In this document: positions 1-27,007 of the stretch, one piece after another | How the letters are laid out: each line of letters opens with the position of its first letter | How positions within the stretch are numbered: the first letter of the stretch is position 1 | DNA from: a bacterium | GTDB taxonomy: Bacteria > Arandabacterota > Arandabacteria > Arandabacterales > JALGWA01 | Length of the DNA stretch: 49,294 nucleotides | Assembly: GCA_050125095.1 (NCBI GenBank) | Contig: JASFEA010000004.1 | Location: forward strand, 1-49,294 | Direction: 5' to 3' | Notes under the pieces: model-generated | The model's database searches: none | What the model saw: only the letters and a program-made list of their open reading frames with translations | What the model was told of the DNA's origin: nothing | Position numbers and translations under genes: made by a program

Positions 1-579
1 CCCGGCCGGGAAGTACTTGTCACGCGGATCGTCGGAAGTGTGCGGGAAGCCGGCCACCATGTAACCGTTGAGGCTGTCGGCCGGGGACGTCAGCGGGATG
101 TTGAGAACGCATGAGGTCCTTCCGTAGCCGGTGAGCACCTCCCAGACAGATTGGAAACCGCGCTGCCTGGACGTGTTAAAGACGATCGGCGCGTTGTCGT
201 CGGAGCTCGGCTCTTTGAGGAAACCGTATATGCCGTGTTTCCCCGGATTGACTCCAGTGACCGCCGACGTCCACGCAGGCGCCGAGGAGGGCGGAAGAAC
301 CGTCATGAGGTCGGTGAAAATGCCTTCCTGGATGACCTTGCTGAAGTTGGGGAGCCTGCCCTGCGCGGCCAGGCGCCTCACCCGCCCGGGCTCCAGCCCG
401 TCGAAGCCGATGACCATCACCCTTCCAAGCGGGGCGGTTGCGGCCGCGCTGCCCCCGCCTTCATCGCCGCCCCCGCAGCCCGCGGCAAGACCGAGACAGA
501 GGAGAACGGCAGCCAGAGAGATGACCTCAAGTGCGCCTTTTCTGAATGCCGCCGACCGGCATCTGCTGATGAATATCAT
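1..579 (-). CDS. AlkP-superfamily (NPP/type I phosphodiesterase-like) lipoprotein, partial (runs off left edge)
   Basis: Not in the ORF track; manual translation from ATG 579 gives MIFISRC...VLLCLGLAAGCGGG (lipobox LAAG-C), then RVMVIGFDGLE, GRLPNFSKVIQEG, LPPSSAPAWTSAVTGVNPGKHGIYGF, matching the other AlkP paralogs in this window. Confidence 0.85.
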   Translation of the reverse strand, partial: MIFISRCRSAAFRKGALEVISLAAVLLCLGLAAGCGGGDEGGGSAAATAPLGRVMVIGFDGLEPGRVRRLAAQGRLPNFSKVIQEGIFTDLMTVLPPSSAPAWTSAVTGVNPGKHGIYGFLKEPSSDDNAPIVFNTSRQRGFQSVWEVLTGYGRTSCVLNIPLTSPADSLNGYMVAGFPHTSDDPRDKYFPAG

Positions 580-679
580 GACTAAAGATAACACCTCCGG
601 AGGCGGCATTCAAGCGGTCGCCCCTCCCGCTACCCCCCGTCCCTAATTGGCTTGACCCCTCCCGGCCATGGTGGCATGA

Positions 680-2104
680 TTGCGATACCCGCAGCGGGGG
701 ATGCGGGCAAGGGTCAGCCATATGTTCAACATAAAGACGCCGCTTCTCATACTCGCCGTAATCGTCATCCTGCTCATCCTTCTGTCCCCGACGCCCGAAG
801 GCCTGACGAGGGAGGGCCAGAGCGCCCTTGCCATACTGGCGATGTGCTTCATCCTCTGGACCTCGGCGGCCATACCGCTTTCGGTGACGAGCCTGGTCGC
901 AATCGCGCTGCTGCCGCTTCTGGGGGTGATGGGGGAGGGCGAGGCCTTCGCGCTTTTCGGGAACCGGGCGGTCTTTTTCATCCTCGGAGCCTTCATTCTG
1001 GCGGGCGGCATGATGGCCTCGGGCCTGAGCTCGCGCATAGCGCTTGTGTTCCTCAGGCGTTTTGACAGGAGCCCCAAGTGGCTCATCTCGGGAATCGTGA
1101 CCTCCTGCGCGTTCATGGCCCTCTGGATGCCCGCCCACGCCGTCGCCGCCTTCATGTTCCCGATCGTGCTCGAGATCGCGCGCGCCCTGGAACTCAGGCC
1201 CCGCGAAAGCAACTACGGAAAGGCCCTGTTTCTCTCGATGGCCTGGGGTTGTGTGGTTGGCGGTGTGGCGACGCTGCTGGGCGGAGCGAGAAACGCGCTT
1301 GCAATAGGTATCTTGGCCGAGAAGTACGGGATGAGCATAAGCTTCGCCGAATGGGTCATGGCCGTCTTCCCGATCACTCTCGTCCTGGCCCTTGTGGTTC
1401 ACCTGGTTGTCTTCCGTTTCTTCAAGCCTGAAATAGACAACGTCAGGCCGGCGCGCGTGGTGCTGGAGAGAAAAGTCAAGGAGCTCGGCCGCATGTCGGC
1501 AACCGAAAAGAAGGTGCTTGCCGTGATGCTCATCACGGTGGCCTTCTGGGTGCTTCTCAGCGGACGGCTTGGGCTCGCTACAATCGCCATTATGGGGGCG
1601 GCGGCGCTCTTCATCATTCACGCCATCACCTGGCATGATGTGGAGAAATACGTGAACTGGGGGGTCATCCTCATGTACGGCGGCGCCATAGCTCTCGCCA
1701 AGGCCCTTGAGATAACGGGCGCCGCGAAGTGGCTGGTGACGAGCTTCCTGGAGCCCTTCCAATTGGGGCCCTTCGCCCTGCTGGCAGTGATCAGCCTGAT
1801 ATCCATCATACTTACCGAAGCGATGAGCAATGCCGCGGTGGTCGCGCTGGTTCTTCCCATAGCCTTCGAGCTCCTGGATACGGGAGTCGGGCTCTCCCCC
1901 ATAGCTGCTGTCTTTGCTGTTGCGGTTCCGGCCGGATTAGCGTTTACTCTACCTATAGGGACGCCGCCCAACGCCATCGCGTACTCGGCCCGGTACCACA
2001 GGCTTAGAGACTCGCTAAGGGTGGGGATCCTGCTGAACATAATCGCGCTGCTGACATTCCTTTTAATCGCGAGATTCTACTGGCCGCATTTGGGAATTTT
2101 CTAG
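680..2104 (+). CDS. SLC13/DASS family sodium-coupled anion (sulfate/dicarboxylate) symporter
   Basis: Many hydrophobic segments; motifs GGVATLLGGARNAL, LTEAMSNAAV, LPIGTPPNAIAY; start may be ATG 722. Confidence 0.9.
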   Translation: MRYPQRGMRARVSHMFNIKTPLLILAVIVILLILLSPTPEGLTREGQSALAILAMCFILWTSAAIPLSVTSLVAIALLPLLGVMGEGEAFALFGNRAVFFILGAFILAGGMMASGLSSRIALVFLRRFDRSPKWLISGIVTSCAFMALWMPAHAVAAFMFPIVLEIARALELRPRESNYGKALFLSMAWGCVVGGVATLLGGARNALAIGILAEKYGMSISFAEWVMAVFPITLVLALVVHLVVFRFFKPEIDNVRPARVVLERKVKELGRMSATEKKVLAVMLITVAFWVLLSGRLGLATIAIMGAAALFIIHAITWHDVEKYVNWGVILMYGGAIALAKALEITGAAKWLVTSFLEPFQLGPFALLAVISLISIILTEAMSNAAVVALVLPIAFELLDTGVGLSPIAAVFAVAVPAGLAFTLPIGTPPNAIAYSARYHRLRDSLRVGILLNIIALLTFLLIARFYWPHLGIF

Positions 2105-2113
2105 GGGGTAGAG

Positions 2114-2602
2114 ATGGGTTATCTGATGCTGGTTCTTTCGCCGACGCGCGATAACCCCAAGTCGGTCGACCTGGCCCTCTCGCTCGTCAAGAAGACCCAG
2201 CGGCCGCTGCTTGCCGTATTCATAGCCGACCTCAGGCTTACCGACGGGATTTCCGGCAAAGTCGTGGACATCGGTTTCCTCGGTGACAGCGTCAGCACCC
2301 ATATAGAGGAGGCGGTGTTGAAGGACTACGAGGCGAGGGGGAGGAAGGAACTCGAGGAGGTGAAGGCCAAGGCCGGCGCGCTGGGTCTCGAGTGCGAGAT
2401 TGTGATAAGGCGCGGATACTACGTCGACGAGATACTCAAGATATCAACCGAAAGAGAGATAGAAGACATCATTGTCTCCAGGGCCGAGCGCTCCAATCTG
2501 TCGAGAAAACTGCTCGGCTCGGCCGTAAACGACCTTCTCGAACAGGCCCCCTGCCCGGTCATGGTGGTCGACGACTCAAGCGTCGAGGGCCATGAGCAGT
2601 GA
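2114..2602 (+). CDS. Universal stress protein (USP)
   Basis: 162 aa with C-terminal USP motif LLGSAVNDLLEQAPCPVMVV. Confidence 0.88.
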   Translation: MGYLMLVLSPTRDNPKSVDLALSLVKKTQRPLLAVFIADLRLTDGISGKVVDIGFLGDSVSTHIEEAVLKDYEARGRKELEEVKAKAGALGLECEIVIRRGYYVDEILKISTEREIEDIIVSRAERSNLSRKLLGSAVNDLLEQAPCPVMVVDDSSVEGHEQ

Positions 2603-2960
2603 TCTCACTCCAGCGGATCCCAATCTGCATAGCCCGCCGTGGCCGGTGAGCTTCTTGCCTCGTACCTGATAGTATAACCCCAGTTGTAGCCCCGGCCCGC
2701 GTACTCCGAGTCACCGCCGCCGCACGCGAGCCCGATAGGGAGAAACGCGGGGCAGATGACTGGGTGCAACAGCGCGCCGGCATCATACCATGACTCCGAA
2801 TCGAGCCGAAGCCCGAATATCGGCCCGCCCGGGGGCATAAAGAGCTACCCCTACGCGACCGATTCATCTATAGTAGGATAACCTCGAGTCCGGGGATGGA
2901 CTGCGGGCCGCAGGCCCAAGAGCCTTGCGGACAAAAATAGAAAGCCAGGGGGGAACAGAC

Positions 2961-4292
2961 GTGTGGTTCAAAAAGAGCAAGCCGAGGGTGCTGGTAATAG
3001 GCCTTGACGGGACGCCGCTTTCGTTTCTGAAGAGAAAGGTCGGAGAGGGCAAGCTGCCCAATTTCAAGAACCTGTTCGCCAAGGGCTCGCTTATCGAGAC
3101 CAAGTCGGTGCACCCGACGGTGTCCTGCGTCGCATGGTCGACCTTCATGACCGGAAAAAACGCGGCCAAGCACAACATCTTCGGTTTCATAGACCGGAAG
3201 CCGGGCACTTATTCCCTTTACATACCCAACTCGTCCAATATGACAAGCAAGACCATGTGGGAAGTGCTGAGCGACCAGGGGAGGAAGGTCCTCACCATGG
3301 GCGTTCCGGTCACATACCCGCCCCGCAAGGTGAACGGCATACTCGTCTCGGGATTCCTGGCACCCAAGATCGACGGCGCGACCTACCCGCCGGCAGTGGC
3401 CTCAAGGCTCAAACAGGGCGGCTATGAACTCGACATAGATCCATGGCGGGCCAGAGAGAACCTTGACAATTGCCATCCGGACCTCAAACGAGTTTTCGAG
3501 GCCCGCGCCCGTAACTTCATGAGTCTCTATAAAGAAGATAAATACGACTTCGCCATCGTCCATTTCATGGAGACCGACAGGTTGCATCACTTCATGTGGG
3601 AGTATATGGACAAGGACGACGAGAAGTACGGAGCCCAGTTCATGGACATATACGCCGGCATCGACGAGTTCATTGGGCGGGTGGACGCGGAGGTTGGCGA
3701 CGATGTGAACCTCTTCGTCATGTCCGACCATGGATTCTGCACGCTGAAGAAGGAGATATACATCAATAGATTCCTGGAAGACAGGGGTTACCTGGTCTGC
3801 AAACCGGACGCCAAGTCGCTTGAGGACATGGATACCTCCAGGACAAGGGTATTCTGCCTCGACCCGGGGCGTATCTACATCAACCTCGAAGGCCGCGAGG
3901 CGGCGGGCATCGTCAAGAAAGGCGATTACGAAGCCCTGAGAGAAGAAGTCAGGAAAGAGCTCCTGGACCTTTGCGATGAGGAGGGCACGCGCGTCGTGCG
4001 GGGGGTACTCACCAGGGAGGAGCTCTATGACGGGCCCAACTTCGAGTACGCTCCCGACCTGGTGGTAAATCCGGTGGACGGGTACGACCCCAAGGGCGCG
4101 TTCGGGAAGGACAATCTCTCCGGCAAGGGCCCCATCGTGGGCATGCACACTTACGACGACGCCATGCTCTTTACAAGGGGACTTGAGCTCAAGCCCGAAG
4201 GCGCGGCCGTGATAGATGTGACCTCGACGATTTTCGACGTCATGCAGGCCGACCGCCCGTCCGACATGGACGGCAAGTCGCTACTGGCGTAG
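2961..4292 (+). CDS. AlkP-superfamily phosphodiesterase/nucleotide pyrophosphatase-like protein (COG3379-like)
   Basis: VLVIGLDG, PTVSCVAWSTFMTGKNAAKHNIFGF, ETDRLHH, MSDHGF, GMH; GTG 2961 follows a G-rich RBS (ORF track start 2925). Confidence 0.88.
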   Translation: MWFKKSKPRVLVIGLDGTPLSFLKRKVGEGKLPNFKNLFAKGSLIETKSVHPTVSCVAWSTFMTGKNAAKHNIFGFIDRKPGTYSLYIPNSSNMTSKTMWEVLSDQGRKVLTMGVPVTYPPRKVNGILVSGFLAPKIDGATYPPAVASRLKQGGYELDIDPWRARENLDNCHPDLKRVFEARARNFMSLYKEDKYDFAIVHFMETDRLHHFMWEYMDKDDEKYGAQFMDIYAGIDEFIGRVDAEVGDDVNLFVMSDHGFCTLKKEIYINRFLEDRGYLVCKPDAKSLEDMDTSRTRVFCLDPGRIYINLEGREAAGIVKKGDYEALREEVRKELLDLCDEEGTRVVRGVLTREELYDGPNFEYAPDLVVNPVDGYDPKGAFGKDNLSGKGPIVGMHTYDDAMLFTRGLELKPEGAAVIDVTSTIFDVMQADRPSDMDGKSLLA

Positions 4293-4339
4293 GAGAGACG
4301 CAATTGCGTGGACGTCAGAATTAAATGGATGTTAAATAA

Positions 4340-4378
4340 GGAGAGGGCCTGCTCGGGAGAGCAGGCCTTCCCATTTTC
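4340..4378. terminator. Intrinsic terminator hairpin between convergent genes
   Basis: GAGGGCCTGCTC-ggga-GAGCAGGCCTTC stem followed by ccatttt; lies between a + strand stop (4292) and a - strand stop (4412). Confidence 0.7.
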
Positions 4379-4411
4379 CTCTGACAGGGCTGTTGCCCTG
4401 ATTCGGCGCCC

Positions 4412-5026
4412 TTATTCTATGTAGCCGAGACCTCTGAGGCGTTCCTTGACTTTCTCTTCATCTTCCTCGGAGTAGGCCTTGTCCTCGCCGGTTCCGCCCT
4501 TGCTGATGTAACCGATGGTCTCCAGCGCGAGCATGACCTTGGCCACCGACTGCTCCACGCTTTCATTGTTGGTGTCAACGATGACTTCCGCCTTCTCGGG
4601 CTCTTCGAACGGCATGTGCCACCCGGCGATGTCGCTTATCTCGCCTCGCTCGGCGCGCTTATAGAGCCCTTTGGGGTCGCGCTTTTTACATTCCTCGAGT
4701 GAGGCCTGGACCCAGACTTCCACGAAGTTGTCTACATAGCTGCGGGCGCGGTCCCGGTGGGCTCTCAGGGGCGACACGGCCGCCACTATGGCCGAGACGC
4801 CGTTCCGCGTCAGCATCTTGCCCATGAAGGCGAGCCTCTTGGTATTGATATCCCTGTCTTTGGCTGTGTAGCCCAGGTCGGGACTCAAATTGGCCCTGAT
4901 CTCGTCGGCGTCGAGGTTCTCCACCAGCACGCCCCGGTCCCTGAGCGCCTTCTCAACGCCCCGTGCGACTGTTGATTTCCCGGAAGCCGGGACGCCTGTG
5001 AACCAAAGAAAAACACCTTTCTCCAT
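4412..5026 (-). CDS. cysC: Adenylyl-sulfate (APS) kinase
   Basis: LWFTGVPASGKSTVA P-loop, LDADEIR, RDPKGLY; extra C-terminal tail ERLRGLGYIE. Confidence 0.95.
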   Translation of the reverse strand: MEKGVFLWFTGVPASGKSTVARGVEKALRDRGVLVENLDADEIRANLSPDLGYTAKDRDINTKRLAFMGKMLTRNGVSAIVAAVSPLRAHRDRARSYVDNFVEVWVQASLEECKKRDPKGLYKRAERGEISDIAGWHMPFEEPEKAEVIVDTNNESVEQSVAKVMLALETIGYISKGGTGEDKAYSEEDEEKVKERLRGLGYIE

Positions 5027-5039
5027 TGAACTCCCCCTT

Positions 5040-6428
5040 CTAGTAAGTGACGGGTTTGCCTTCCATTTCCGGAGGGATCTCGAGACCCATCTCGTTGAGG
5101 ATGGTAGGCGCTATGTCATATATGCTCACTTCGTCGATCTTCTTGCCGCGCTTGACCTTGGGGTCATAGAGCATGAAAATCCCGTGCTCGGCATGCACGG
5201 CGTCGTCCGGGCCGACCTCGGTCTCGAAAGAATGAATCGAGTCATGGCCGACCGAACCTGTCGAACGCCAGTAGAGGTCGCCGAAGTAAACGATGAGGTC
5301 TGGGGCCTGGTCGATATGTGGCCCGTTATAGACTTCCTGGGGCTTGAGTACTCTCGTGCCGATGTTCTTGCCGTTCTCATCGGTGATTGCGCGGAGCTTC
5401 TCGGCTATCTCGTCCCGCACCTCTTCGTATTTCCCTGGGTCGACGATGCCGTTCTTCTCCCTGCCCTTCACATTGAGGAAGAGCCGGCAGTAGTAGCCGC
5501 CGAGCCCCCAGGCGGTGGTGTTGTCCCAGTCCACCTCGACCTTGTCGAACTTGGTCACCTCCTTGGGCACGGTCTTGAGCTTCATGTAGCCTTCCTGAAT
5601 CAGCCAGTCGTTGACGTTGATGGCGCCCTCCATCTTCTTGGCGCCGTGGTCCGATACCACTATGACCACCGTGTCGTCGTCCAGCTTGGCCATGAGCTCG
5701 CCGATGCGCTTATCGAGATACTTGTAATAATCCGGAATGGCGTTCTCGTACTTGTTGCCCGGCTCGTACTTCCGGTGGGTCTTGTCCATGTATTTCCAGA
5801 AACCGTGGTGTAGGCGGTCCAGCCCCATCTCGATGAACATGAAGAAGTGCCAGGGCTTCTCGAGGAAGGCCTCAGCCAGGTCGAAGCGCTGCTTGGCCAT
5901 GTCGCGGATCTCCTGAAGCAGCGAGTCCTTATCCTCCCGCCGGAACTTCTTGACATCTATCGTATAGTCTCCCACCGCCGCTTTGATCTCGTCCTTTATG
6001 AACCCGGGAAACGTGTAGTCGCTGTCGGTGTCGGGGGCGAGAAAGCCCGTGACCAGCAGGCCGTTCATCGGCTTGGGCGGATACGTCTGCGGCACGCCGA
6101 TTATATTCGCCAGATATCCTTCGCGGTTTATGAAGTCCCAGACGGTGGGCTCGTGAATGACCGTCGAATTGGCTATCCAGAAATCCTGGTAGGAGTATTC
6201 GCTCCGGTTCCTGAAGCCGAATATGCCCAGCTTCCCGGGGTTCTTGCTCGTGACCATGCACATCCATGCGGGGCAGGTGATGGGAGGGATGCTGCTCTTC
6301 ATTCTCGCGTAGACGCCCTCGTTCATGATCTTCTTGAAATTGGGAAGCTGGTCGGCGTATTCGTCGAAGACCAGCTGCGGCGCGGCGCAGTCCAGCCCTA
6401 TTACCATGACCTTCTTCTTGAGTGCCAT
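5040..6428 (-). CDS. AlkP-superfamily phosphodiesterase-like protein (COG3379-like)
   Basis: VMVIGLDCA, PPITCPAW, GLDRLHHGFW, VSDHG, HAEHG; ATG 6428 preceded by GAGGAG RBS (ORF track start 6482 overlaps sat). Confidence 0.9.
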   Translation of the reverse strand: MALKKKVMVIGLDCAAPQLVFDEYADQLPNFKKIMNEGVYARMKSSIPPITCPAWMCMVTSKNPGKLGIFGFRNRSEYSYQDFWIANSTVIHEPTVWDFINREGYLANIIGVPQTYPPKPMNGLLVTGFLAPDTDSDYTFPGFIKDEIKAAVGDYTIDVKKFRREDKDSLLQEIRDMAKQRFDLAEAFLEKPWHFFMFIEMGLDRLHHGFWKYMDKTHRKYEPGNKYENAIPDYYKYLDKRIGELMAKLDDDTVVIVVSDHGAKKMEGAINVNDWLIQEGYMKLKTVPKEVTKFDKVEVDWDNTTAWGLGGYYCRLFLNVKGREKNGIVDPGKYEEVRDEIAEKLRAITDENGKNIGTRVLKPQEVYNGPHIDQAPDLIVYFGDLYWRSTGSVGHDSIHSFETEVGPDDAVHAEHGIFMLYDPKVKRGKKIDEVSIYDIAPTILNEMGLEIPPEMEGKPVTY

Positions 6429-6441
6429 ACTGCTCTCCTCT

Positions 6442-7593
6442 TTAGCCCACAAACGGGTTTTCGAACTTCTTCTGGGCCTCAAATACCTCCGGCCTGATCA
6501 TCTCCGGAGGAGGAGTCCCGCCCTCGGTGAGCATCTTCCTGACGACGGTGCCGGAGAAGAAGATCTTCTGGTCGTCGCCATGCGGACAGGTCCTGTCGCT
6601 CTCCAGAGCCGCGCACTTCTTGCAATGGAAGAAGTCTCCGCGCACCGTGATCGGGCTGATGTCAAGGTCGCCGATCTCGGCGAAGATGTTGATTGCGGCC
6701 TCGGGATGATAGTAGTCGCCGACGCCGGCGTGGTCCCTGCCGACGATGAGATGCGTGCAGCCGTGGTTCTTACGGATGATTGCGTGATGCACGGCCTCTC
6801 GCGGACCGGCGTATCTCATCTCCATGGGGAGAATGCTGAGAAAGACCCTGTCTTCCGGGAAGTACTCCTTGAGAAGAGCCTCATAGCACTTGAGTATGAC
6901 TTCGTCCTTGTAGTCGCCCTTCTTTTTCTTGCCTATAACGGGGTGAATCAGAAGGCCGTCCACAAGCGAGAGCACGGTCTTCTGCATGCGCTCGTGGCCG
7001 ACATGCGGGGCGTTCCTCGTCTGGAATCCAGCCACCGTCTTCCAGCCTCTCTTCTCGAATACCTCCCTGGTCTCGGCTGGAGTCAGGTTGTACTCGGGGA
7101 AGGGATCTCTCGTGGGGTCGACGAGGTCGATGTCGCCGGCCAGGAAGACATCGTTCATCTCCATCGTGGACTTCACGCCCGGGTGTTCCAGGTCATTGGT
7201 GCCGAAGACAGCTGCCGCGATCTTATCCTTGGGATATGAGAACTTCTCGGTCATGTGGAGAATCGCAATCGGCTTGCCGTCCCCGCTCTTAAGGCAGACA
7301 TCGTCGCCTTCGCTGAGCCCGGCTGCCTCTTTCTCGGTCACGTCCAGGAGGATGGGCACCGTCCACGGCACGCCGCTCGCCAGCCGCATGTTTTCAAGCA
7401 CCGGCTCGAGATCGGCCTTGCCTATGAAGCCCTCCAGCGGGCTGTAACGCCCACATGAGATGTTGCGGATATCCTTTACCGTCTCCGCGTCAACGGTGAT
7501 GCTCTTCATTCCCTCAACGCTGGCGAGGGCTTTCTTGAGCTGGTCGCCTTCCAGCTGCCGGTTGACGAGTTTCCCCCCATGAGGCTTGATCAT
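6442..7593 (-). CDS. sat: Sulfate adenylyltransferase (ATP sulfurylase, Sat type)
   Basis: MIKPHGGKLVN, FQTRNAPHVGHE, MRYAGPREAVHHAIIRKNHGCTHLIVGRDHAGVG, zinc motif CKKC...CPH. Confidence 0.97.
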   Translation of the reverse strand: MIKPHGGKLVNRQLEGDQLKKALASVEGMKSITVDAETVKDIRNISCGRYSPLEGFIGKADLEPVLENMRLASGVPWTVPILLDVTEKEAAGLSEGDDVCLKSGDGKPIAILHMTEKFSYPKDKIAAAVFGTNDLEHPGVKSTMEMNDVFLAGDIDLVDPTRDPFPEYNLTPAETREVFEKRGWKTVAGFQTRNAPHVGHERMQKTVLSLVDGLLIHPVIGKKKKGDYKDEVILKCYEALLKEYFPEDRVFLSILPMEMRYAGPREAVHHAIIRKNHGCTHLIVGRDHAGVGDYYHPEAAINIFAEIGDLDISPITVRGDFFHCKKCAALESDRTCPHGDDQKIFFSGTVVRKMLTEGGTPPPEMIRPEVFEAQKKFENPFVG

Positions 7594-7669
7594 CGGCTCT
7601 TCTCCTCCTCAATGACATTAACGAAATCCACAAACCTGGATGATGGTGCCGGTGAGACACACTCCCCAC

Positions 7670-7698
7670 ATTATATATATCTCGGCCACCTTGCGCAA
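7670..7698 (-). promoter_or_regulatory. Putative sigma70 promoter for sat-AlkP-cysC
   Basis: Minus strand TTGCGC-17 bp-TATAAT, about 75 bp upstream of the sat start with GAGGAG RBS. Confidence 0.6.
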
Positions 7699-7770
7699 TA
7701 CGCTTAGAACCTTTATTTGCAGGGAATTGCGGCCATCGGCCGGGGCCCCGCAGCCCCCCGCCGCTGCCCC

Positions 7771-9216
7771 CTAGCCGCCCAGGCCAAGGACCTCCAGGAC
7801 GGTCGGGAACACCTCCGAAATGCGCATATCACGCTCGGGCAGGGGGCGCCCGGAGTTGTGCAGCATGAGAACGCCGAACTGGGCGTGGCCTCCCGAGACC
7901 TTCTTATGGGTGGTGGTCATGCCCAGCGTGCCGCAGAAGAGCGTCCGGTCGACGCCGTAGGTGTCCTTGAGCTCGAAGACGATATCCGGGTACTTGCCCA
8001 CGCTCCCGCCGCTGAAAGCCTCCTCGCGCCGCCGCGCGTAGAGCACGACCTGGTCTCCGTCTTTGTCTGTAAGCGACAGAAGCAGGGCAATCAGCTTATC
8101 TCTGAGGTCCTCATAGTCCCCGCCCGAGGCCTCTATCAACGGCCGGTTCATTTCTATGCCGCTGAATGATGTCCCGCCTCCAAGGTCGGACGTCCATGCC
8201 AGGCTGGCCTCCTTCTCGGTGGCGTATGAGGAGGACTTGAGGCTCTTGCGCTTCTCCTTGGGTATGATATGCGCTATCCTGTAGACCCAGTCCTCAAGGT
8301 CGAGTCTCTGCATCAGCGTGAGAAAAGCGTTCTTGGTCCTCTCCACGAGGGCCACCGGGCTCAGGGGCCCCGCGGCGCCCTGCCTCGAGGCCAGGTAGCC
8401 CTCTCCCCTGAGGACCTCGTTTATGAATACGGCGTTGGGCGGCCTCATGCCATGTCCGTGATCGCTGACTATGAGGAGGGCCTGACCGGGTGAAAGCCGC
8501 TCCATGAAGTCTCCGATGATGCCGTCGAAGAGGATGAAGAAGTCCCTGATGGCGCCTTCGAACTCGTTGCTGCCGGGATATGTCGGGTCGCCGGGGTCCA
8601 TGTAGCGCCACAGGTAGTGCATCACGCGGTCGAGCGTCAGGAACGAGAGGAAGAATAGGTCCCAATCCTCGAGGTCCATAAGCTCCAGACCGAATCTCGC
8701 GAGGTCGCGGGTAACGAAAGCGGTGCGCTCGATGAAGGCGCCGAGCTCGCTTTTCTGCGGGAAGTCGGTCATGCCTCCGAGCTCGGGAACATTGAAGCGC
8801 GTCAGGATGTCCGGGGGCTCCGCCTGGACTTCGCCCGTGATGAACACGGGACCGTTCACCATTATGCCGTTCAGCTTCCACACGGGGTAGGCAAGAAGCG
8901 GATTTATGACGCAGACCCTCTTTCCGGCCTGGCTCGCCCTGTCCCAGAAGGTTTTGCCGACCAGCGCGCTCGTGTCGAGAGTCGATTTCCCCTTGAAGTC
9001 GAGATAGTCCATCGTGTCCACGATGCCGTGCTCCCACGGGTGCTGTCCCGTGAAGATGGTCACCCAGGCCGGTATGGAGTCGGGAGGTTTGGTGGACTCG
9101 AGCCGCCGGTAGGAACCGGCCCCCATTATCTTCGAGATATTGGGAAGGTCGGCCGCCCACTTCTCCACGAGGTCGGGGTCAAGGGCGTCTATACCCAGTA
9201 TCACCAGTCTGCTCAA
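7771..9216 (-). CDS. AlkP-superfamily phosphodiesterase-like protein (COG3379-like)
   Basis: LVILGIDALD, PPDSIPAWVTIFTG, LDRVMH, VSDHGHG, GGH. Confidence 0.88.
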   Translation of the reverse strand: MSRLVILGIDALDPDLVEKWAADLPNISKIMGAGSYRRLESTKPPDSIPAWVTIFTGQHPWEHGIVDTMDYLDFKGKSTLDTSALVGKTFWDRASQAGKRVCVINPLLAYPVWKLNGIMVNGPVFITGEVQAEPPDILTRFNVPELGGMTDFPQKSELGAFIERTAFVTRDLARFGLELMDLEDWDLFFLSFLTLDRVMHYLWRYMDPGDPTYPGSNEFEGAIRDFFILFDGIIGDFMERLSPGQALLIVSDHGHGMRPPNAVFINEVLRGEGYLASRQGAAGPLSPVALVERTKNAFLTLMQRLDLEDWVYRIAHIIPKEKRKSLKSSSYATEKEASLAWTSDLGGGTSFSGIEMNRPLIEASGGDYEDLRDKLIALLLSLTDKDGDQVVLYARRREEAFSGGSVGKYPDIVFELKDTYGVDRTLFCGTLGMTTTHKKVSGGHAQFGVLMLHNSGRPLPERDMRISEVFPTVLEVLGLGG

Positions 9217-9896
9217 CCTGTTGCTCCCCCTATCTCCCTGCGGATGTCGGTCTGCACGTCCTCTTTCGATTTGGTTGCGTCCACGGTGCTGGCGCCGACA
9301 TGCTCTGCGATAATATGGTAAACCGGGCGGCGGGACTCAAGGTATTCAATTGACGGGATGTCGTCCTTGCGCTTCATGCTCTCTTCCGGGGGAAGGTCCA
9401 GAAGCAGAACCTTGTCGGGCCTGGGAAAGAGCCTGAAGAAGACCGAACCCAGCAGGCGCAGGGCCTCGCGGCCCTCGCTACCGAAAGCCGAGTCTATGTC
9501 TATCATGGAGTCATAGACGTACCTGTCGAGTATAACCGTCGTGACATCACGCTTGAGGCGCCCGACCGCTCTCCTGAAACTTATGTAATGGTCGATGAGC
9601 GTCGTGGAGCGCCAGATGCCGCGCAGAAGGGGGTTTCTGAACATCGACTGCTTGGACCGCGTGTACTTGCGGTAAGAATCGGGATCGGCTATCCCCTCTC
9701 CGCGTTTCTCTTCGCGGGGTCCTCCGAGAACTGCCTTGCCGATCCGGATCAGGGGGGCTGTTATATAGGACTCGCCACGCATCCACACCACCTCCGCTCT
9801 CTCGCCCCTGGCGGCGAGCCATTCGGCCAGCATGTTGGCCTGCAGGGTCTTGCCGCTGCCGTCAAGCCCCATAAGCACTATTATCTTACGCTTCAT
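9213..9896 (-). CDS. Thymidylate-kinase-like P-loop protein
   Basis: GLDGSGKT Walker A, ILDRYVYD motif, PRPDKVLLLDLPPE; 4-bp overlaps with both neighbours. Confidence 0.8.
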   Translation of the reverse strand: MKRKIIVLMGLDGSGKTLQANMLAEWLAARGERAEVVWMRGESYITAPLIRIGKAVLGGPREEKRGEGIADPDSYRKYTRSKQSMFRNPLLRGIWRSTTLIDHYISFRRAVGRLKRDVTTVILDRYVYDSMIDIDSAFGSEGREALRLLGSVFFRLFPRPDKVLLLDLPPEESMKRKDDIPSIEYLESRRPVYHIIAEHVGASTVDATKSKEDVQTDIRREIGGATG

Positions 9897-10939
9897 CCGA
9901 TCTCCTGCTCCATAACCTCAAGGATCTCGTCTGCAACGCTGTCCCAGGTGAGGTTCTCAACCATGCTTCTTGTCGACGCCCGCTCAAGACTCATGGCCCG
10001 GGCGAATTTCTCTTTAAACTCTCCCTCTTCTCCGCAGATGAAAAGGCCGTTTCCCTCGGTGAATAGATCCGGGATGCCGCCGAACGCCGTGGTGACGACG
10101 GGTATATCGGTCGCCATGGCCTCCAGGATCGAAAGCGGTATCTCGATGGCTCCCCTGGCGTTCAGGGTCGGAAACAGGTAGCAGTCGGCCAGCCGGTAGA
10201 TCTCTTCTATGTTCTCTATGTACTCGTCTATAACCGCAACCGACTCGCGCCTCAGCCACTCCCGCACCCCGGGGTCCGGCACCGTGCTCGTGCTTGTCAC
10301 GACGGCCAGCCTGGTACCTTTCAGTTCCAGCCTCTTGAGCAGCTTGAGGTTCCGCCGGGCGGATATGTGGCCTATATGAAGCGCGATCTTGCCCTTGCCC
10401 AGGCCGTACTTCTCCCTCAGGCGCTCCTTCTCGCCGGCCGCGGGGGGCCTGAAGACGGCCGTGTCCACGCCCAGCGGAACTCGCTTCGCGCGCACCCCCG
10501 CCTTCTCCATAATGGCCCGGCTCTCTTCGGACAGCACGAGGGCCAGTCTCGGGCGGACAAACGATATGAAGCTCCTGACTATGTCCGAAAAGGTGCGCCT
10601 CTGCAGGGAAAGCACGACCACGGGTTTCCCGCCCGATTGCATCCTGATGAGCTTGGCCCGCGTCATGCTCATGGGCGTCGCCGATGTCTGCGGGATATAG
10701 AGGATCGCGTCGCAATCGACTCGCTTCAAGCGGCTTGAGAATCCGCTCCCCAGCAGCAGCTTGTTACGCGGCAGGGTCTCAACCTCGAAAGGGAGCTTTC
10801 CGTATCTTGACGCAAAGATGGTGGCCCGGAGCCTCACGGCAATGGCTGCCGCTATCTCCGAGGTGGCCTTCTTGAACCCCTCGTCCAGCGGGGAGGATAT
10901 GTCCTCGCTCACTATGGCTATCTTCTCAAGTTTCATCAT
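9893..10939 (-). CDS. Glycosyltransferase family 4 (GT-B)
   Basis: VPLGVDTAVF, YRLADCYLFP, EIPLSILEAMATDIPVVTTAFGGIPD (E-x7-E-like donor-binding region). Confidence 0.88.
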   Translation of the reverse strand: MMKLEKIAIVSEDISSPLDEGFKKATSEIAAAIAVRLRATIFASRYGKLPFEVETLPRNKLLLGSGFSSRLKRVDCDAILYIPQTSATPMSMTRAKLIRMQSGGKPVVVLSLQRRTFSDIVRSFISFVRPRLALVLSEESRAIMEKAGVRAKRVPLGVDTAVFRPPAAGEKERLREKYGLGKGKIALHIGHISARRNLKLLKRLELKGTRLAVVTSTSTVPDPGVREWLRRESVAVIDEYIENIEEIYRLADCYLFPTLNARGAIEIPLSILEAMATDIPVVTTAFGGIPDLFTEGNGLFICGEEGEFKEKFARAMSLERASTRSMVENLTWDSVADEILEVMEQEIG

Positions 10940-10988
10940 GGCTTCGCCCCATTGTATTTGGTGCCCGAGAGCCGGTCAAGCCCCCGTT

Positions 10989-11030
10989 GGGGTCAGGTCT
11001 CTTATTTGGGGTCAGGTCTTGAAATGCACA
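10989..11030 (-). repeat. GGGGTCAGGTCT repeat pair: 12-bp partial copy 10989-11000 and 23-bp copy 11008-11030
   Basis: GGGGTCAGGTCTTGAAATGCACA is the reverse complement (1-2 mismatches) of the copies at 20701, 49010 and 49033. Confidence 0.85.
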
Positions 11031-11036
11031 ATATAC

Positions 11037-11136
11037 CTCCCGGAGTGCCGGGGCCACACATCCTCCGGGATGCCGGGGCCACATGTCCTCCGGAGTGCCG
11101 GGGCCACACATCCTCCGGAGTGCCCGGGCCACATGT
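11037..11136. repeat. Tandem repeat, 4 x 25 bp
   Basis: Units approximately CCTCCGGAGTGCCGGGGCCACA(CAT/TGT) at 11037, 11062, 11087 and 11112, with no spacers. Confidence 0.9.
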
Positions 11137-11196
11137 CCGCGGGGGCGGATAGCAGAGAGCACAATCAACACTCCGGGGCAAGAGGGCAAAGAGTAT

Positions 11197-11226
11197 TTGA
11201 AAATCCTGATAGGGCCATTGTATACT
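11197..11226 (+). promoter_or_regulatory. Putative sigma70 promoter
   Basis: TTGAAA-18 bp-TATACT upstream of ATG 11263. Confidence 0.4.
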
Positions 11227-11262
11227 GCCCCCGAATCAGCCCCTTGGAAAGGACGGCAATAT

Positions 11263-12105
11263 ATGTGGAGGTGTTATGTCGTTGCGCTAATCCTCATGCT
11301 GCTGCTCGCGTTTGCGGGCCCGGCGTCGCTGCTCGCCGGAGAGGGCCCGGACTCGCTGTGGTCGAAGGCCATCTCGCTTTACGAGTCAAATGACAACTGG
11401 GTTCCGGGCAGCGTCTACATGCACATGCAGGAAGTGGACAAGCACGGGCAGCCCAAAGACGAGAGGGGTCATGAAGTATGGACGCGGCTCTATCTCGATG
11501 AGGACGGAGAGGTCGAAGGCGAGCTGGTGAAAGTGCTCGATAACGGGGAGGACATAACAGAAGAGGAGAGGGCCAGGAGAGAAGAGGAAGAAAGAGAAAA
11601 CGAAGATGAAGGCGGTGATGATGACCGCAGCGTCACCATGGAGGGGTACATGCCATTCGATCCGGAGCACCAGGACGGTATGAACTTCCATGCTACCGGC
11701 GATGTGGAGGTTGTGAACGGCAGGCGCTGCGCCGTGTTCGAGTTCGAGGATGAACGGAAGGGTGACGATGAGGACGATGATGACGACGATACGGTCGTGA
11801 CGGGGAAGGTGTGGCTCGAACTGGAAAAGGGCGTGCCCCTGAAGATGGAATATACGACAGATCCCCTTCCCAAACGAGTGAAGAAGATGAATACCACTGT
11901 TGTCTTTGAATTTACAGACCCCGACACATGGCGCCCGGCGAGTATGAGCGTGGAGGCCACCGGCGGCTTCCTCTTTATAAAGAAGCACTTCCATATGCAT
12001 ATGACCTTCGACGACCACTGGCGCATGCCGGAAGAAGGCGAGGTCGTCGAGGGCGATGGGACCGGAACGGTGGAGGATACGGAAGCCGTCCCGGCTCAGG
12101 AGTAG
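11263..12105 (+). CDS. Secreted acidic hypothetical protein
   Basis: ATG 11263 after AAAGGA; Sec signal MWRCYVVALILMLLLAFAGPASLLA; beta-rich with poly-acidic loops. The ORF-track extension to 11083 merely reads through the tandem repeat. Confidence 0.75.
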   Translation: MWRCYVVALILMLLLAFAGPASLLAGEGPDSLWSKAISLYESNDNWVPGSVYMHMQEVDKHGQPKDERGHEVWTRLYLDEDGEVEGELVKVLDNGEDITEEERARREEEERENEDEGGDDDRSVTMEGYMPFDPEHQDGMNFHATGDVEVVNGRRCAVFEFEDERKGDDEDDDDDDTVVTGKVWLELEKGVPLKMEYTTDPLPKRVKKMNTTVVFEFTDPDTWRPASMSVEATGGFLFIKKHFHMHMTFDDHWRMPEEGEVVEGDGTGTVEDTEAVPAQE

Positions 12106-12113
12106 ACTGCGCG

Positions 12114-12839: not shown

Positions 12840-12849
12840 GGGGACCGAT

Positions 12850-23670: not shown

Positions 23671-23676
23671 GAGACT

Positions 23677-26035: not shown

Positions 26036-26054
26036 GTCCGGTACGGGGTGAGCC

Positions 26055-27001: not shown

Positions 27002-27007
27002 GGAAAG

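What the first reader, a model, noticed from the sequence alone, without database searches (positions are those of the whole stretch)
1..10939. PAPS-synthesis genes interleaved with four AlkP-superfamily paralogs and a glycosyltransferase: candidate non-canonical sulfation system
Seen: an SLC13/DASS transporter, sat and cysC, four NPP/COG3379-like AlkP proteins (one directly between sat and cysC), a Tmk-like kinase and a GT4. There is no cysH, sulfite reductase, aprAB, CysQ or PSB-loop sulfotransferase in the window. Established: Sat plus CysC make PAPS, and AlkP-superfamily members such as LtaS, EptA and OpgB act as group transferases through a Ser/Thr covalent intermediate. Inference: PAPS here is made for sulfation of a glycan or surface polymer, and the 'phosphodiesterases' may be an unrecognised class of sulfotransferases, or PAP/APS-recycling hydrolases.
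Basis: partly seen in the sequence, partly recalled or inferred. Interest (0 to 1): 0.8.

Follow-up and report, generated by a model that had tools for sequence, protein, structure and literature searches.

The report
AlkP-type enzymes wedded to PAPS synthesis
Two uncharacterised alkaline-phosphatase-type enzymes sit inside this bacterium's sulfate-activation genes, travel with those genes across many phyla, and are the best candidates for the sulfate-transferring step for which this genome has no recognisable enzyme.

Summary
Window 1-10939 encodes a DASS transporter, Usp, Sat, CysC, four PF01663 (AlkP/NPP-like) proteins, a Tmk-like kinase and a GT4.

The four paralogs are not equivalent:
- AlkP2 (between sat and cysC) and AlkP1 belong to two conserved orthogroups. 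Both travel with sat/cysC or cysDN in at least seven phylum-level lineages, including archaea.
- AlkP2 is fused to Sat in at least 120 protein clusters. It is also found fused to CysC and to pyruvate kinase-Sat.
- GT4-Tmk-AlkP3 is a separable glycan module.
- AlkP0 is an exported lipoprotein that belongs to a different neighbourhood.

This genome (91% complete) and 7 of 24 other carrier genomes show no PAPS reductase and none of the sulfotransferase Pfam families tested. Every AlkP2 carrier examined has CysC.

Main rival (about 0.3): both are helper hydrolases, with AlkP2 a pyrophosphatase pulling Sat and AlkP1 a pAp phosphatase. The Sat and pyruvate-kinase fusions and the high cross-phylum conservation favour this rival.

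Sequence analysis cannot separate the two. Either way the family is large, unannotated and functionally tied to PAPS.

The parts
1..609 (-). AlkP0: N-terminal part of an exported PF01663 lipoprotein. Not part of the PAPS unit.
   Evidence: PF01663 2e-15. The leader ends in a lipobox-like LAAGC. The rest of the gene lies at the end of contig C32, which overlaps the window start by 127 bp.
680..2104 (+). DASS/SLC13 anion symporter, the likely sulfate importer.
   Evidence: PF00939 7e-74 and TIGR00785 over its cut-off. DASS-Usp recurs with the sat cluster in Eisenbacteria-type loci. In a Zixibacteriota locus it is part of one co-oriented run, DASS-Usp-Sat-AlkP2-CysC-AlkP1 (L086).
2114..2602 (+). 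Universal stress protein-family gene that travels with DASS.
   Evidence: PF00582 3e-12. Conserved next to DASS in L004, L008, L011, L065, L067, L068, L070, L072 and L086.
2925..4292 (+). AlkP1: cytoplasmic NPP-like enzyme with a Ser nucleophile; second conserved partner of sat/cysC.
   Evidence: PF01663 4e-44. Metal ligands and Ser are aligned with those of AlkP2. Of 72 related loci, 47 hold Sat/CysC/CysD and 26 hold Sat+AlkP2+CysC+AlkP1.
4343..4370 (+). Terminator-like hairpin (12-bp stem) in the gap between the convergent AlkP1 and cysC genes.
   Evidence: Consensus scan. This is a pattern match only.
4412..5026 (-). CysC, APS kinase.
   Evidence: PF01583 1.5e-49 and TIGR00455 over its cut-off. 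It is the only copy in the genome.
5040..6428 (-). AlkP2: cytoplasmic NPP-like enzyme with a Thr nucleophile, between sat and cysC (the ORF is open up to 6482).
   Evidence: PF01663 2.5e-55. Residues D13, T51, D204, H208, D260, H261 and H412 are conserved in 83 relatives. AF2 model pLDDT 97.2. NPP fold, Z about 30. Next to Sat/CysC in 30 of 45 loci. Sat fusions.
6442..7593 (-). Sat, ATP sulfurylase.
   Evidence: PF01747 1e-85, PUA_2 8e-49, NF003166 503 bits. It is the only copy in the genome.
7771..9216 (-). AlkP3: cytoplasmic AlkP-family enzyme with a Ser nucleophile and a large cap insertion; part of the GT4-Tmk-AlkP3 module.
   Evidence: PF01663 1.6e-29. Alignment. The triad is conserved in Eisenbacteria-type loci and in an archaeal glycan cluster that lacks sat/cysC.
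9213..9896 (-). Tmk-like P-loop kinase.
   Evidence: PF02223 1e-13. Walker A GLDGSGKT. Nearest Atlas clusters are thymidylate-kinase family. Its stop/start overlaps both neighbouring genes by 4 nt.
9893..10939 (-). GT4 glycosyltransferase, first gene of the minus-strand unit.
   Evidence: PF13692 1e-13 and PF00534 2e-10. Conserved with Tmk and AlkP3.
10951..10979 (-). Promoter-like site upstream of GT4.
   Evidence: 10 of 12 hexamer matches. This is a pattern match only.

Best explanation
The left 11 kb of the window is a sulfate import and activation locus: DASS, Usp, Sat and CysC. Its product PAPS is used for sulfation, not for assimilation.

Two cytoplasmic, catalytically intact NPP-like AlkP-superfamily enzymes, AlkP2 and AlkP1, are integral and evolutionarily conserved members of this module. 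I propose that at least one of them, AlkP2 first, is the PAPS-consuming enzyme.

Proposed mechanism (inferred):
- The two-metal site and the Thr/Ser nucleophile take the sulfuryl group from PAPS.
- The sulfuryl group passes to a widely shared sugar-type acceptor, such as a nucleotide sugar or a polyprenyl-phosphate-linked sugar.
- Glycosyltransferases then build that acceptor into a surface glycan.
- The other paralog is either a second sulfotransferase or the pAp phosphatase.

GT4-Tmk-AlkP3 is a neighbouring but separable glycan-building module. AlkP0 is unrelated.

Shown: the gene content, the intact active sites, the NPP fold, the conserved linkage and fusions, and the absence of recognisable PAPS consumers.
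Inferred: the chemistry, the acceptor and the glycan product.
For: 1. Linkage. AlkP2 orthologs (45-90% identity) lie beside Sat and/or CysC in 30 of 45 loci. By record title these come from Eisenbacteria-type MAGs, Theionarchaea, Ktedonobacteria/Chloroflexia, Anaerolineae, Thermodesulfobacteriota, Nitrospirae and Actinomycetota, in varying gene orders. In a Verrucomicrobiae locus AlkP2 lies beside CysD plus CysN-CysC instead of Sat.

2. Fusions. All 120 listed proteins, out of 261 longer relatives at E<=1e-20, are PUA_2 + ATP-sulfurylase + Phosphodiest. A CysC-AlkP2 fusion (P0136) and an AlkP2-GT2 fusion (P0160) also exist.

3. AlkP1. Of 72 AlkP1-type loci, 47 hold Sat/CysC/CysD. L094 has cysD and cysN-cysC divergent from an AlkP2-AlkP1-GT4-GT2-GT2 run.

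4. Dependence on PAPS. In 201 sampled Chloroflexota genomes, all 24 AlkP2 carriers have CysC against 77 of 177 non-carriers (Fisher p=2.5e-8, not corrected for relatedness). All 24 other carrier genomes also have CysC.

5. No known consumer.
- The own genome has no PF01507, PF00685, PF13469, PF03567, PF17784, PF19798 or PF09037.
- Seven of 24 carrier genomes from three phyla (G001, G004, G005, G006, G008, G009, G017) have none of PF01507, PF00685, PF13469, PF03567, PF19798 or PF17784 over cut-off.
- No sulfotransferase family appeared in 39 scanned loci.

6. A PHP-domain protein follows AlkP2/CysC in 5 of 45 loci (L022, L037, L040, L041, L043) and follows AlkP1 in L092. Its best solved relative is 2yb1 at 1.6e-44. 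I recall 2yb1 as a pAp phosphatase. A pAp remover beside AlkP fits an enzyme that releases pAp.

7. Glycan context. GT2 is adjacent in L013, L015 and L022. Exopolysaccharide export or exosortase genes occur in L018, L024 and L040. A Wzx/GT4 cluster occurs in L034.

8. Precedent. [quoted passage not shown]
Against: - No AlkP-superfamily enzyme has been shown biochemically to use PAPS as a sulfuryl donor. That statement rests on my knowledge and on searches.
- The canonical NPP reaction on APS or PAPS would attack phosphorus and release free sulfate.
- AlkP2 and AlkP1 keep 40-56% identity between bacterial phyla and archaea. That is unusual for acceptor-specific sulfotransferases and typical of enzymes acting on universal small molecules.
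- The dominant fusion partner is Sat, whose by-product is pyrophosphate, not CysC. AlkP2-pyruvate kinase(-Sat) fusions (P0172, P0203) and an NTP_transferase fusion (P0163) fit a pyrophosphate-removing helper better.
- AMP-forming ligases, which also release pyrophosphate, are neighbours in L013, L018 and L024.
- 11 of 24 carrier genomes do have PF13469 sulfotransferases and 11 have PAPS_reduct over cut-off, so AlkP2 is not confined to genomes that lack known consumers.
- Completeness of G001-G024 was not reported. Four of the sulfotransferase searches on the own genome had silent controls.
- Homology of Agl7 to these families was not tested.
Confidence: 0.42

Rival explanations
1. Both enzymes are helper hydrolases of the PAPS cycle and no new chemistry is involved. 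AlkP2 is a pyrophosphatase that pulls the unfavourable ATP sulfurylase reaction, which is why it is fused or adjacent to Sat. AlkP1 is a 3'-phosphatase for pAp, an analog of CysQ. The sulfotransferase is then an unrecognised protein encoded elsewhere.
For: - Sat-AlkP2 fusions dominate (120 of 120 listed).
- AlkP2-PK-Sat and AlkP2-PK fusions reproduce a push-pull arrangement around Sat, and an NTP_transferase-AlkP2 fusion joins another pyrophosphate producer.
- AMP-binding ligase neighbours occur in L013, L018 and L024.
- ATP sulfurylase fused to inorganic pyrophosphatase is documented in stramenopiles and haptophytes (PMC2275785, passages).
- High cross-phylum identity fits universal substrates.
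- In the order Sat-AlkP2-CysC-X, the last position is AlkP1 in Anaerolineae and Zixibacteriota, and a PHP protein in Actinomycetota (L041) and Nitrospirae (L037, L043).
- The own genome has no family-I pyrophosphatase and no Inositol_P/CysQ-family protein, where the control rang in 14 of 14 genomes.
- 20 of 24 carrier genomes lack PF00719.
- Phosphatase and pyrophosphatase chemistry is native to the AlkP superfamily (established knowledge).
Against: - It leaves this genome and 7 of 24 other carriers making PAPS with no recognisable consumer.
- In 201 Chloroflexota genomes, soluble pyrophosphatase is as frequent in AlkP2 carriers (13 of 24) as in the others (81 of 177; p=0.52).
- Two of the three fusion-bearing genomes checked (G010, G039) have PF00719.
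- All 24 carriers plus the own genome have a membrane H+-PPase. So do 5 of 5 non-carriers checked, so this says nothing either way.
- AlkP2 also occurs with only PHP and glycan genes, without sat nearby (L022, L040). In L094 both AlkPs are in the glycosyltransferase run rather than the cysDN run.
- AlkP1 sits next to PHP in L092, which would be redundant if both remove pAp.
- The nearest folds are nucleotide-binding NPPs rather than monoesterases.
Confidence: 0.3
2. The enzymes act on APS or PAPS in the usual NPP manner, by attack at the 5'-phosphate. They would then be APS/PAPS sulfohydrolases that control the pool of activated sulfate, or transferases of the (3'-phospho)adenylyl group to an unknown acceptor. 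Some other chemistry, not yet imagined, that needs PAPS genes nearby is also possible.
For: - NPP fold with Thr/Ser and all six metal ligands.
- Strict co-occurrence with CysC.
- Known NPPs cleave nucleotide pyrophosphate and phosphosulfate bonds (established knowledge; recalled for PAPS).
Against: - A hydrolase that destroys the product of the enzyme it is fused to is a futile cycle. It would be an odd thing to fix in more than 100 fusion clusters.
- No acceptor or pathway is suggested by the neighbours.
- It also leaves PAPS without a productive consumer.
Confidence: 0.13
3. There is no functional link. The AlkP genes are phosphate-scavenging phosphodiesterases that happen to lie near sat/cysC in a genome rich in such paralogs.
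For: The genome gives 33 PF01663 matches. AlkP0 and several other paralogs have secretion signals. The left-hand neighbourhood encodes secreted proteins.
Against: AlkP1-3 have no signal peptide. Adjacency is conserved across phyla and domains, with changing gene order. Gene fusions exist. CysC is present in 24 of 24 carriers against 77 of 177 non-carriers.
Confidence: 0.03

Closest known systems
Canonical bacterial glycan-sulfation loci, for example the Cobetia marina capsule cluster: PAPS-synthesis genes, cysQ, sulfate permease, sulfotransferase and glycosyltransferases (PMC11766843, passages)
   Same: A sulfate transporter, sulfate-activation genes and glycosyltransferase(s) lie in one locus. 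PAPS is made for sulfation rather than assimilation.
   Different: No P-loop (PSB-loop) sulfotransferase and no CysQ is found in the locus or in the genome. Their expected places are taken by NPP-like AlkP-family genes.
ATP sulfurylase-inorganic pyrophosphatase fusions of stramenopiles and haptophytes (PMC2275785, passages)
   Same: A phosphoryl-hydrolase-type domain is fused to ATP sulfurylase. The logic is to pull an unfavourable reaction.
   Different: The fused domain here is an NPP-like AlkP-superfamily domain of about 460 aa with a large conserved cap, not a family-I pyrophosphatase. It also occurs fused to CysC and GT2, and inside glycan loci without sat.
Haloferax volcanii Agl7 (HVO_2046), annotated as a sulfatase and genetically required for sulfation of a dolichol-phosphate-linked hexose (PMC3892788, passages and Table S1)
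   Same: A protein annotated to the sulfatase branch of the AlkP superfamily, predicted cytosolic or membrane-associated, sits in a glycan gene cluster and is needed to add sulfate, not remove it.
   Different: Agl7 is annotated to the sulfatase branch, while the window proteins are NPP-like (PF01663). I could not obtain its sequence, so the relationship is untested. Its biochemistry is also unresolved.
NPP/ENPP nucleotide pyrophosphatase/phosphodiesterases (Xanthomonas NPP, ENPP1/3/4/6)
   Same: Best structural matches: VIA Z 27-31 (ENPP1 at 26.9) and Foldseek TM about 0.6. The Thr nucleophile in a T-x-P motif and the six metal ligands are shared.
   Different: Only 12-18% identity. The window proteins are cytoplasmic rather than secreted. 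They have a conserved cap of about 130 residues with its own invariant residues (N273, W275, D300-W301, R323, P376-D377). They are genomically tied to PAPS synthesis.
   Same: Same superfamily. They use covalent Ser/Thr intermediates to transfer a group to a glycan or lipid acceptor (recalled). LtaP appears among the fold matches at Z 18.9.
   Different: Those enzymes are membrane-anchored with extracytoplasmic catalytic domains and use lipid donors. They score well below NPPs, PafA-type phosphatases and sulfatases as fold neighbours.

Membership tests
NPP-like branch of the alkaline phosphatase superfamily (Pfam PF01663) | Profile match over the curated cut-off | tested here: met
   AlkP0 57.7, AlkP1 151.9, AlkP2 188.9 and AlkP3 104.1 bits, against a cut-off of 23.
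NPP-like branch of the alkaline phosphatase superfamily (Pfam PF01663) | Two-metal site ligands (D, D/H, D/H, H) and a Thr/Ser nucleophile | tested here: met
   In AlkP2, D13, T51, D204, H208, D260, H261 and H412 are conserved in 66-83 of 83 relatives. The D/H ligands are invariant, with Thr or Ser at the nucleophile position, in AlkP1, AlkP2, AlkP3 and four orthologs. The Thr aligns with the Xanthomonas NPP nucleophile region. The identity of the NPP residues themselves is recalled.
NPP-like branch of the alkaline phosphatase superfamily (Pfam PF01663) | AlkP/NPP core fold | tested here: met
   AF2 model pLDDT 97.2. ENPP6, ENPP4 and Xac NPP at Z 29.9-30.6 with 337-344 residues aligned. Foldseek E about 1e-17. 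Tested for AlkP2 only.
PAPS-dependent P-loop sulfotransferases (Pfam Sulfotransfer_1/2/3/4/5, Sulphotransf) | Profile match, P-loop-like fold with PAPS-binding loops | tested here: not met
   No sulfotransferase family matched any window ORF scanned. The AlkP2 fold is AlkP/NPP. If these proteins are sulfotransferases, they are not members of this family.
Formylglycine sulfatases (PF00884) | C/S-x-P-x-R motif that is converted to formylglycine | tested here: not met
   AlkP2 has T-C-P-A-W at the aligned position, AlkP1 has S-C-V-A-W and AlkP3 has S-I-P-A-W, with no Arg at +4. The PF00884 match of AlkP2 is secondary: 35.2 bits against 188.9 for PF01663. The motif consensus is recalled.
Family-I inorganic pyrophosphatase (PF00719) and CysQ/IMPase (PF00459) | Profile match | tested here: not met
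   Neither family matched the window ORFs or anywhere in the genome. A helper role would be a non-homologous replacement.
Agl7-type proteins required for sulfation (Haloferax volcanii HVO_2046) | Sequence homology to HVO_2046 | not testable with these tools
Only the annotation and the deletion phenotype were read.
PAPS-based glycan sulfation locus (system level) | Sulfate transporter, ATP sulfurylase, APS kinase and a glycosyltransferase together | tested here: met
   DASS, Sat, CysC and GT4 lie within 11 kb.
PAPS-based glycan sulfation locus (system level) | A recognisable sulfotransferase and a pAp phosphatase | tested here: not met
   No sulfotransferase family was found in the window or the genome. 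There is no CysQ family. The only pAp-phosphatase-like gene is a PHP homolog on contig C151.
PAPS-based glycan sulfation locus (system level) | A sulfated product | not testable with these tools
   This needs mass spectrometry or 35S labelling.

The most novel reading that the evidence does not exclude
AlkP2-type and AlkP1-type proteins are a previously unrecognised, very widespread class of PAPS-dependent sulfotransferases built on the alkaline-phosphatase/NPP fold. They would work through a covalent sulfo-Thr/Ser intermediate at a two-metal centre. If so, they would supply the missing sulfation step in many bacterial and archaeal lineages that make PAPS but have no P-loop sulfotransferase.
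Probability: 0.4. Interest if true: 0.88.

Novelty: new variant of a known kind. Interest (0 to 1): 0.72.

Why it matters
PAPS has only two established fates: reduction by CysH-type enzymes, and transfer by P-loop sulfotransferases. This genome, and carrier genomes in Eisenbacteria-type lineages, Chloroflexota and Theionarchaea, make PAPS and show neither.

The only genes that stay with sat/cysC across these lineages are two AlkP-superfamily orthogroups. Databases call them merely 'alkaline phosphatase family protein' or 'phosphodiesterase'. The family is large: 3858 representative clusters at E<=1e-30.

- If they are sulfotransferases, this is a new enzyme class. It would also help explain how uncultured bacteria and archaea sulfate their envelopes.
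- If they are a pyrophosphatase and a pAp phosphatase, they are non-homologous replacements for two housekeeping steps, and the true sulfotransferase of these organisms is still missing.

Either outcome corrects the annotation of thousands of genes. It can be settled with a few enzyme assays.

Tried and rejected
- Tmk-like protein as a cryptic sulfotransferase: rejected. It has a canonical Tmk Walker A motif, a Tmk-family profile match and Tmk-family Atlas neighbours.
- Apparent Sat-AlkP2 fusion in L041 (ORF 785-3928): rejected. The Sat and AlkP2 matches are in different frames, and the long ORF matched only Phosphodiest. The fusion in L026 (886 aa) is real.
- H+-PPase in 24 of 24 carriers as support for the pyrophosphatase idea: rejected as uninformative after 5 of 5 non-carrier Chloroflexota also had it.
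- Anticorrelation of AlkP2 with soluble pyrophosphatase: looked for in 201 Chloroflexota genomes and not found.
- Closer solved structure: none. The best sequence match in the PDB is Xac NPP at 2e-9 with a profile. The fold searches gave NPPs, PafA-type phosphatases and sulfatases only.
- Literature: searches found no paper that links PF01663/COG3379 proteins to sat/cysC or to sulfotransfer. Only Agl7 came up, prompted by recall.
- Cultured host for experiments: the cluster look-up of five relatives returned no cultured organism name.
- RNA evidence: no RNA holder was listed for window 4400-11000.
- Not attempted: complex prediction of AlkP2 with Sat. A pass would not separate the rival functions.

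Full report
**What is there.**
- Minus strand, one tightly packed unit: GT4 (10939-9893), a Tmk-like P-loop kinase (9896-9213), AlkP3 (9216-7771), then 177 nt, Sat (7593-6442), AlkP2 (probable start 6428, end 5040) and CysC (5026-4412).
- GT4/Tmk and Tmk/AlkP3 overlap by 4 nt. Sat/AlkP2 and AlkP2/CysC are 13 nt apart.
- A promoter-like site lies just upstream of GT4. A 12-bp hairpin lies in the gap between cysC and the convergent AlkP1 (pattern matches only).
- Plus strand: DASS transporter (680-2104), Usp (2114-2602) and AlkP1 (2925-4292).
- AlkP0 (609-1, minus) is cut by the contig end.

**The four paralogs differ.**
- AlkP1, AlkP2 and AlkP3 start their conserved first strand within 3-20 residues of the N-terminus, so they have no signal peptide.
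- AlkP0 has a hydrophobic leader ending in a lipobox-like LAAGC.
- All keep the AlkP/NPP metal ligands and a Thr (AlkP2) or Ser (AlkP1, AlkP3) at the nucleophile position.
- AlkP1 is 32-34% identical to AlkP2 and AlkP3 about 25%.

**Left of the window.** The window is the start of contig C4. The end of contig C32 overlaps it by exactly 127 bp and carries the rest of AlkP0. The 19.7 kb upstream encode secreted proteins: lamin-tail domain, metallo-beta-lactamase, DUF5689 and HHH_3, two of them with Por_Secre_tail sorting domains. There is no sulfotransferase or PAPS reductase. AlkP0 belongs to that extracellular neighbourhood. The caveat is that the contig join rests on the overlap alone.

**AlkP2 travels with sulfate activation.** A scan of one genome per species returned 45 loci with AlkP2 relatives. 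tblastn with the window's proteins found Sat and/or CysC beside the AlkP2 ortholog in 30 of the 45. I did not count a 31st locus, L031, whose CysC-like match is only 22% identical.
- By record title these loci come from Eisenbacteria-type MAGs, a Theionarchaea archaeon, Ktedonobacteria/Chloroflexia, Anaerolineae, Thermodesulfobacteriota, Nitrospirae and Actinomycetota.
- Gene order varies: Sat-AlkP2-CysC, CysC-Sat-AlkP2, Sat-CysC-AlkP2 and AlkP2-CysC-Sat.
- In a Verrucomicrobiae locus the partner is the other type of sulfurylase, CysD plus CysN-CysC.
- Several of the 15 loci without a partner are short contigs that end at the match.

**Fusions.**
- In L026 one 886-aa ORF carries PUA_2, ATP-sulfurylase and Phosphodiest.
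- Among proteins of 810-2310 aa, 261 match AlkP2 at E<=1e-20, and all 120 listed have that same architecture.
- From the 150 best cluster representatives I picked 15 with odd lengths or split matches and scanned them. They included a second Sat fusion, CysC-AlkP2 (P0136), AlkP2-pyruvate kinase barrel-Sat (P0172), AlkP2-pyruvate kinase (P0203), AlkP2-GT2 (P0160), NTP_transferase-AlkP2 (P0163) and AlkP2-methyltransferase (P0262). The other eight showed only AlkP-type domains.
- The family is large: 15642 representatives at E<=1e-3 and 3858 at E<=1e-30.
- Sources name it only 'predicted AlkP superfamily phosphohydrolase/phosphomutase', 'alkaline phosphatase family protein' or 'phosphodiesterase'.

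**AlkP1 is a second conserved partner.** A scan with AlkP1 kept 80 loci, of which 72 carry an AlkP1-type match.
- 47 of the 72 also hold Sat, CysC or CysD.
- 26 of the 72 hold the full set Sat+AlkP2+CysC+AlkP1, mostly as one co-oriented run in Anaerolineae.
- The Zixibacteriota locus L086 has DASS-Usp-Sat-AlkP2-CysC-AlkP1 in one orientation. These are the same six genes as in the window.
- Brocadiaceae loci have CysD-CysN-AlkP1.
- L094 has cysD and cysN-cysC divergent from AlkP2-AlkP1-GT4-GT2-GT2.
- Three loci have AlkP1 followed by a UDP-GlcNAc 2-epimerase.

**AlkP3 belongs to a separable module.** GT4-Tmk-AlkP3 is kept as a unit in all Eisenbacteria-type loci found.
- In some of these genomes it is not next to sat (L053).
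- It recurs at 29/31/38% identity in an uncultured archaeon (L057), inside a glycan cluster with an epimerase, GT2, a radical SAM enzyme, three GT4 genes and a Wzx-type flippase, and with no sat or cysC.

**Who uses the PAPS?**
- The own genome (91% complete, 3.5% contamination) has one sat and one cysC.
- It has no PAPS_reduct domain (control 14 of 14).
- It has no Sulfotransfer_1 or Sulfotransfer_3 (controls rang in 2 of 14).
- It has no Sulfotransfer_2, _4, _5 or Sulphotransf. Those controls were silent, although Sulfotransfer_5 did ring in G016.
- Among the 24 genomes behind the loci, PF13469 is present in 11, PF00685 in 9 and PF01507 in 12 (11 over cut-off).
- Seven genomes have none of these over cut-off, and none of PF03567, PF19798 or PF17784: G001, G004 and G005 (Eisenbacteria-type), G006 (Theionarchaea, with one sub-threshold PAPS_reduct match) and G008, G009 and G017 (Ktedonobacteria/Chloroflexia). 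Their completeness was not reported.
- No sulfotransferase family appeared in the 39 loci whose ORFs I scanned. Searches covered all 280 ORFs of 21 loci at E<=1e-5 and 1e-8. One search covered 97 of 148 ORFs of 17 of the 18 selected loci (all L090 ORFs were among the 51 dropped) at E<=1e-10, after exceeded the size limit. At the stricter thresholds weak matches could have been missed.

**Dependence on PAPS.**
- CysC is present in all 24 carrier genomes.
- In an evenly drawn sample of 201 Chloroflexota genomes, 24 have an AlkP2 ortholog at E<=1e-130.
- All 24 have CysC at E<=1e-30, against 77 of the other 177. Fisher p=2.5e-8, not corrected for shared ancestry.
- The tallies include three genomes flagged as unpublished (G062, G186, G205). 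All three are non-carriers and positive for both families. Without them the non-carrier figures are 74 of 174 for CysC and 78 of 174 for PF00719, and nothing changes.

**Structure.** With an 83-sequence alignment, AlphaFold2 gives pLDDT 97.2.
- The nearest solved folds are ENPP6, ENPP4 and Xanthomonas NPP (Z 29.9-30.6, 14-18% identity).
- Next come PafA/SPAP-type phosphatases and phosphonoacetate hydrolase (Z about 26), then many sulfatases (Z 20-26).
- No close structure exists.
- Besides the catalytic set, the family conserves several arginines (R75, R205, R315, R323, R388) and a cap region (N273, W275, D300-W301, P376-D377). That suggests a specific, anionic, probably nucleotide-bearing ligand.
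- I could not inspect coordinates, so this last point is inference.

**The main rival.** Sat releases pyrophosphate, and its equilibrium is very unfavourable. ATP sulfurylase fused to a pyrophosphatase is known in stramenopiles and haptophytes (PMC2275785, passages).
- For the rival: the dominance of Sat fusions; the pyruvate kinase and NTP_transferase fusions; the AMP-ligase neighbours; the 40-56% identity kept between phyla and domains; and the absence from this genome of a family-I pyrophosphatase and of any CysQ/IMPase-family protein. All fit AlkP2 as a pyrophosphatase and AlkP1 as a pAp phosphatase.
- For the rival: a PHP-domain protein occupies the AlkP1 position in L041 and L037/L043. 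Its best solved relative is 2yb1 at 1.6e-44. I recall that entry as a 3',5'-bisphosphonucleotide phosphatase.
- Against the rival: soluble pyrophosphatase is no rarer in AlkP2 carriers (13 of 24) than in non-carriers (81 of 177; p=0.52).
- Against the rival: AlkP2 and AlkP1 each occur next to PHP without sat (L022, L040, L092). In L094 they sit in the glycosyltransferase run.
- Against the rival: it leaves eight genomes from three phyla making PAPS for no known purpose.
- Uninformative: membrane H+-PPase is in all 24 carriers and the own genome, but also in 5 of 5 non-carriers.

**Precedent and literature.** In Haloferax volcanii, deletion of agl7 (HVO_2046) leaves the dolichol-phosphate-bound low-salt glycan unsulfated. 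The gene is annotated N-acetylgalactosamine-4-sulfatase and predicted cytosolic or membrane-associated. The authors assign Agl7 a role in sulfation and leave the mechanism open (PMC3892788, passages and Table S1). So a sulfatase-annotated protein, of the sulfatase branch of the AlkP superfamily, that is needed to add sulfate already has genetic support. Whether Agl7 is related to the window's families is untested. Seven full-text searches found no paper on PF01663/COG3379 proteins in sulfate activation. A canonical comparison is the Cobetia marina capsule cluster, which holds PAPS genes, cysQ, a sulfate permease, a sulfotransferase and glycosyltransferases (PMC11766843, passages).

**Verdict.**
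- The conserved core is DASS-Usp-Sat-AlkP2-CysC-AlkP1.
- GT4-Tmk-AlkP3 is a neighbouring glycan module, and AlkP0 is unrelated.
- I rank 'at least one of AlkP1/AlkP2 is the PAPS-consuming sulfuryl transferase' first, at about 0.42, because it alone closes the pathway in genomes without any known consumer.
- 'Pyrophosphatase plus pAp phosphatase helpers' comes second, at about 0.3.
- The chemistry is inferred, not shown. A handful of assays would decide it.

Noticed in passing
G000 contig C32:4000-23718 (locus L046), joined to window position 1 by a 127-bp overlap: The region left of the window encodes large secreted proteins: lamin-tail domain, metallo-beta-lactamase, DUF5689 and HHH_3, two of them with Por_Secre_tail sorting domains. 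Together with the AlkP0 lipoprotein this looks like an extracellular nucleic-acid or phosphate-scavenging set.
   Followed up: partly
Whole genome G000: PF01663 gives 33 matches across many contigs. Some of these paralogs have signal peptides or lipoboxes and some are cytoplasmic. This is an unusually large AlkP-family expansion for a 3.35-Mb genome.
   Followed up: partly
Whole genome G000: No Inositol_P (CysQ/SuhB/IMPase) family protein was found, where the control rang in 14 of 14 genomes. No family-I pyrophosphatase was found either. A membrane H+-PPase is present at C24:12071-13987.
   Followed up: partly
Proteins P0172 and P0203 (relatives from the representative library): The AlkP2-type domain is fused to a pyruvate kinase barrel that lacks the PK C-terminal domain. 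In P0172 an ATP sulfurylase follows as well. I did not expect a glycolytic kinase barrel in a sulfate-activation protein.
   Followed up: partly
Loci L017, L020, L021, L032, L042 (Ktedonobacteria/Chloroflexia): A myo-inositol-1-phosphate synthase gene is divergently adjacent to AlkP2 in all five loci, even in L020 where CysC-Sat-GHMP kinase-SIS are missing from the neighbourhood. A GHMP kinase also follows the cluster in the Theionarchaea locus L012.
   Followed up: no
window 22630-30167: A V/A-type ATPase operon: subunits C/AC39, I, c, E, A and B.
   Followed up: no
window 40073-47668: A 2531-aa subtilase (Peptidase_S8 with a fervidolysin-like prodomain), followed by many Ig-like, ASH and Cep192-type repeats and a C-terminal FlgD_ig domain.
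   Followed up: no
window 15749-17578 and 31360-31824: An amino-acid permease fused to a PTS EIIA-2 domain, and a separate stand-alone EIIA-2 gene.
   Followed up: no
window 11083-13290: An ORF without any family match, a class-I methyltransferase and a HIT-family protein lie next to GT4. These three are kept only in the closest relative's contig (loci L002, L048 and L051, all from one contig), so I did not count them as part of the module. Some HIT enzymes act on APS (recalled).
   Followed up: partly
Loci L018, L024, L037, L013: In Acidobacteriota and Nitrospirae, AlkP2 orthologs sit among exosortase/EPS-type genes: Poly_export, EpsH, tryptophan-halogenase-like flavoproteins, an acyl-CoA dehydrogenase, an AMP-forming ligase, and SBBP or NHL repeat proteins.
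   Followed up: no
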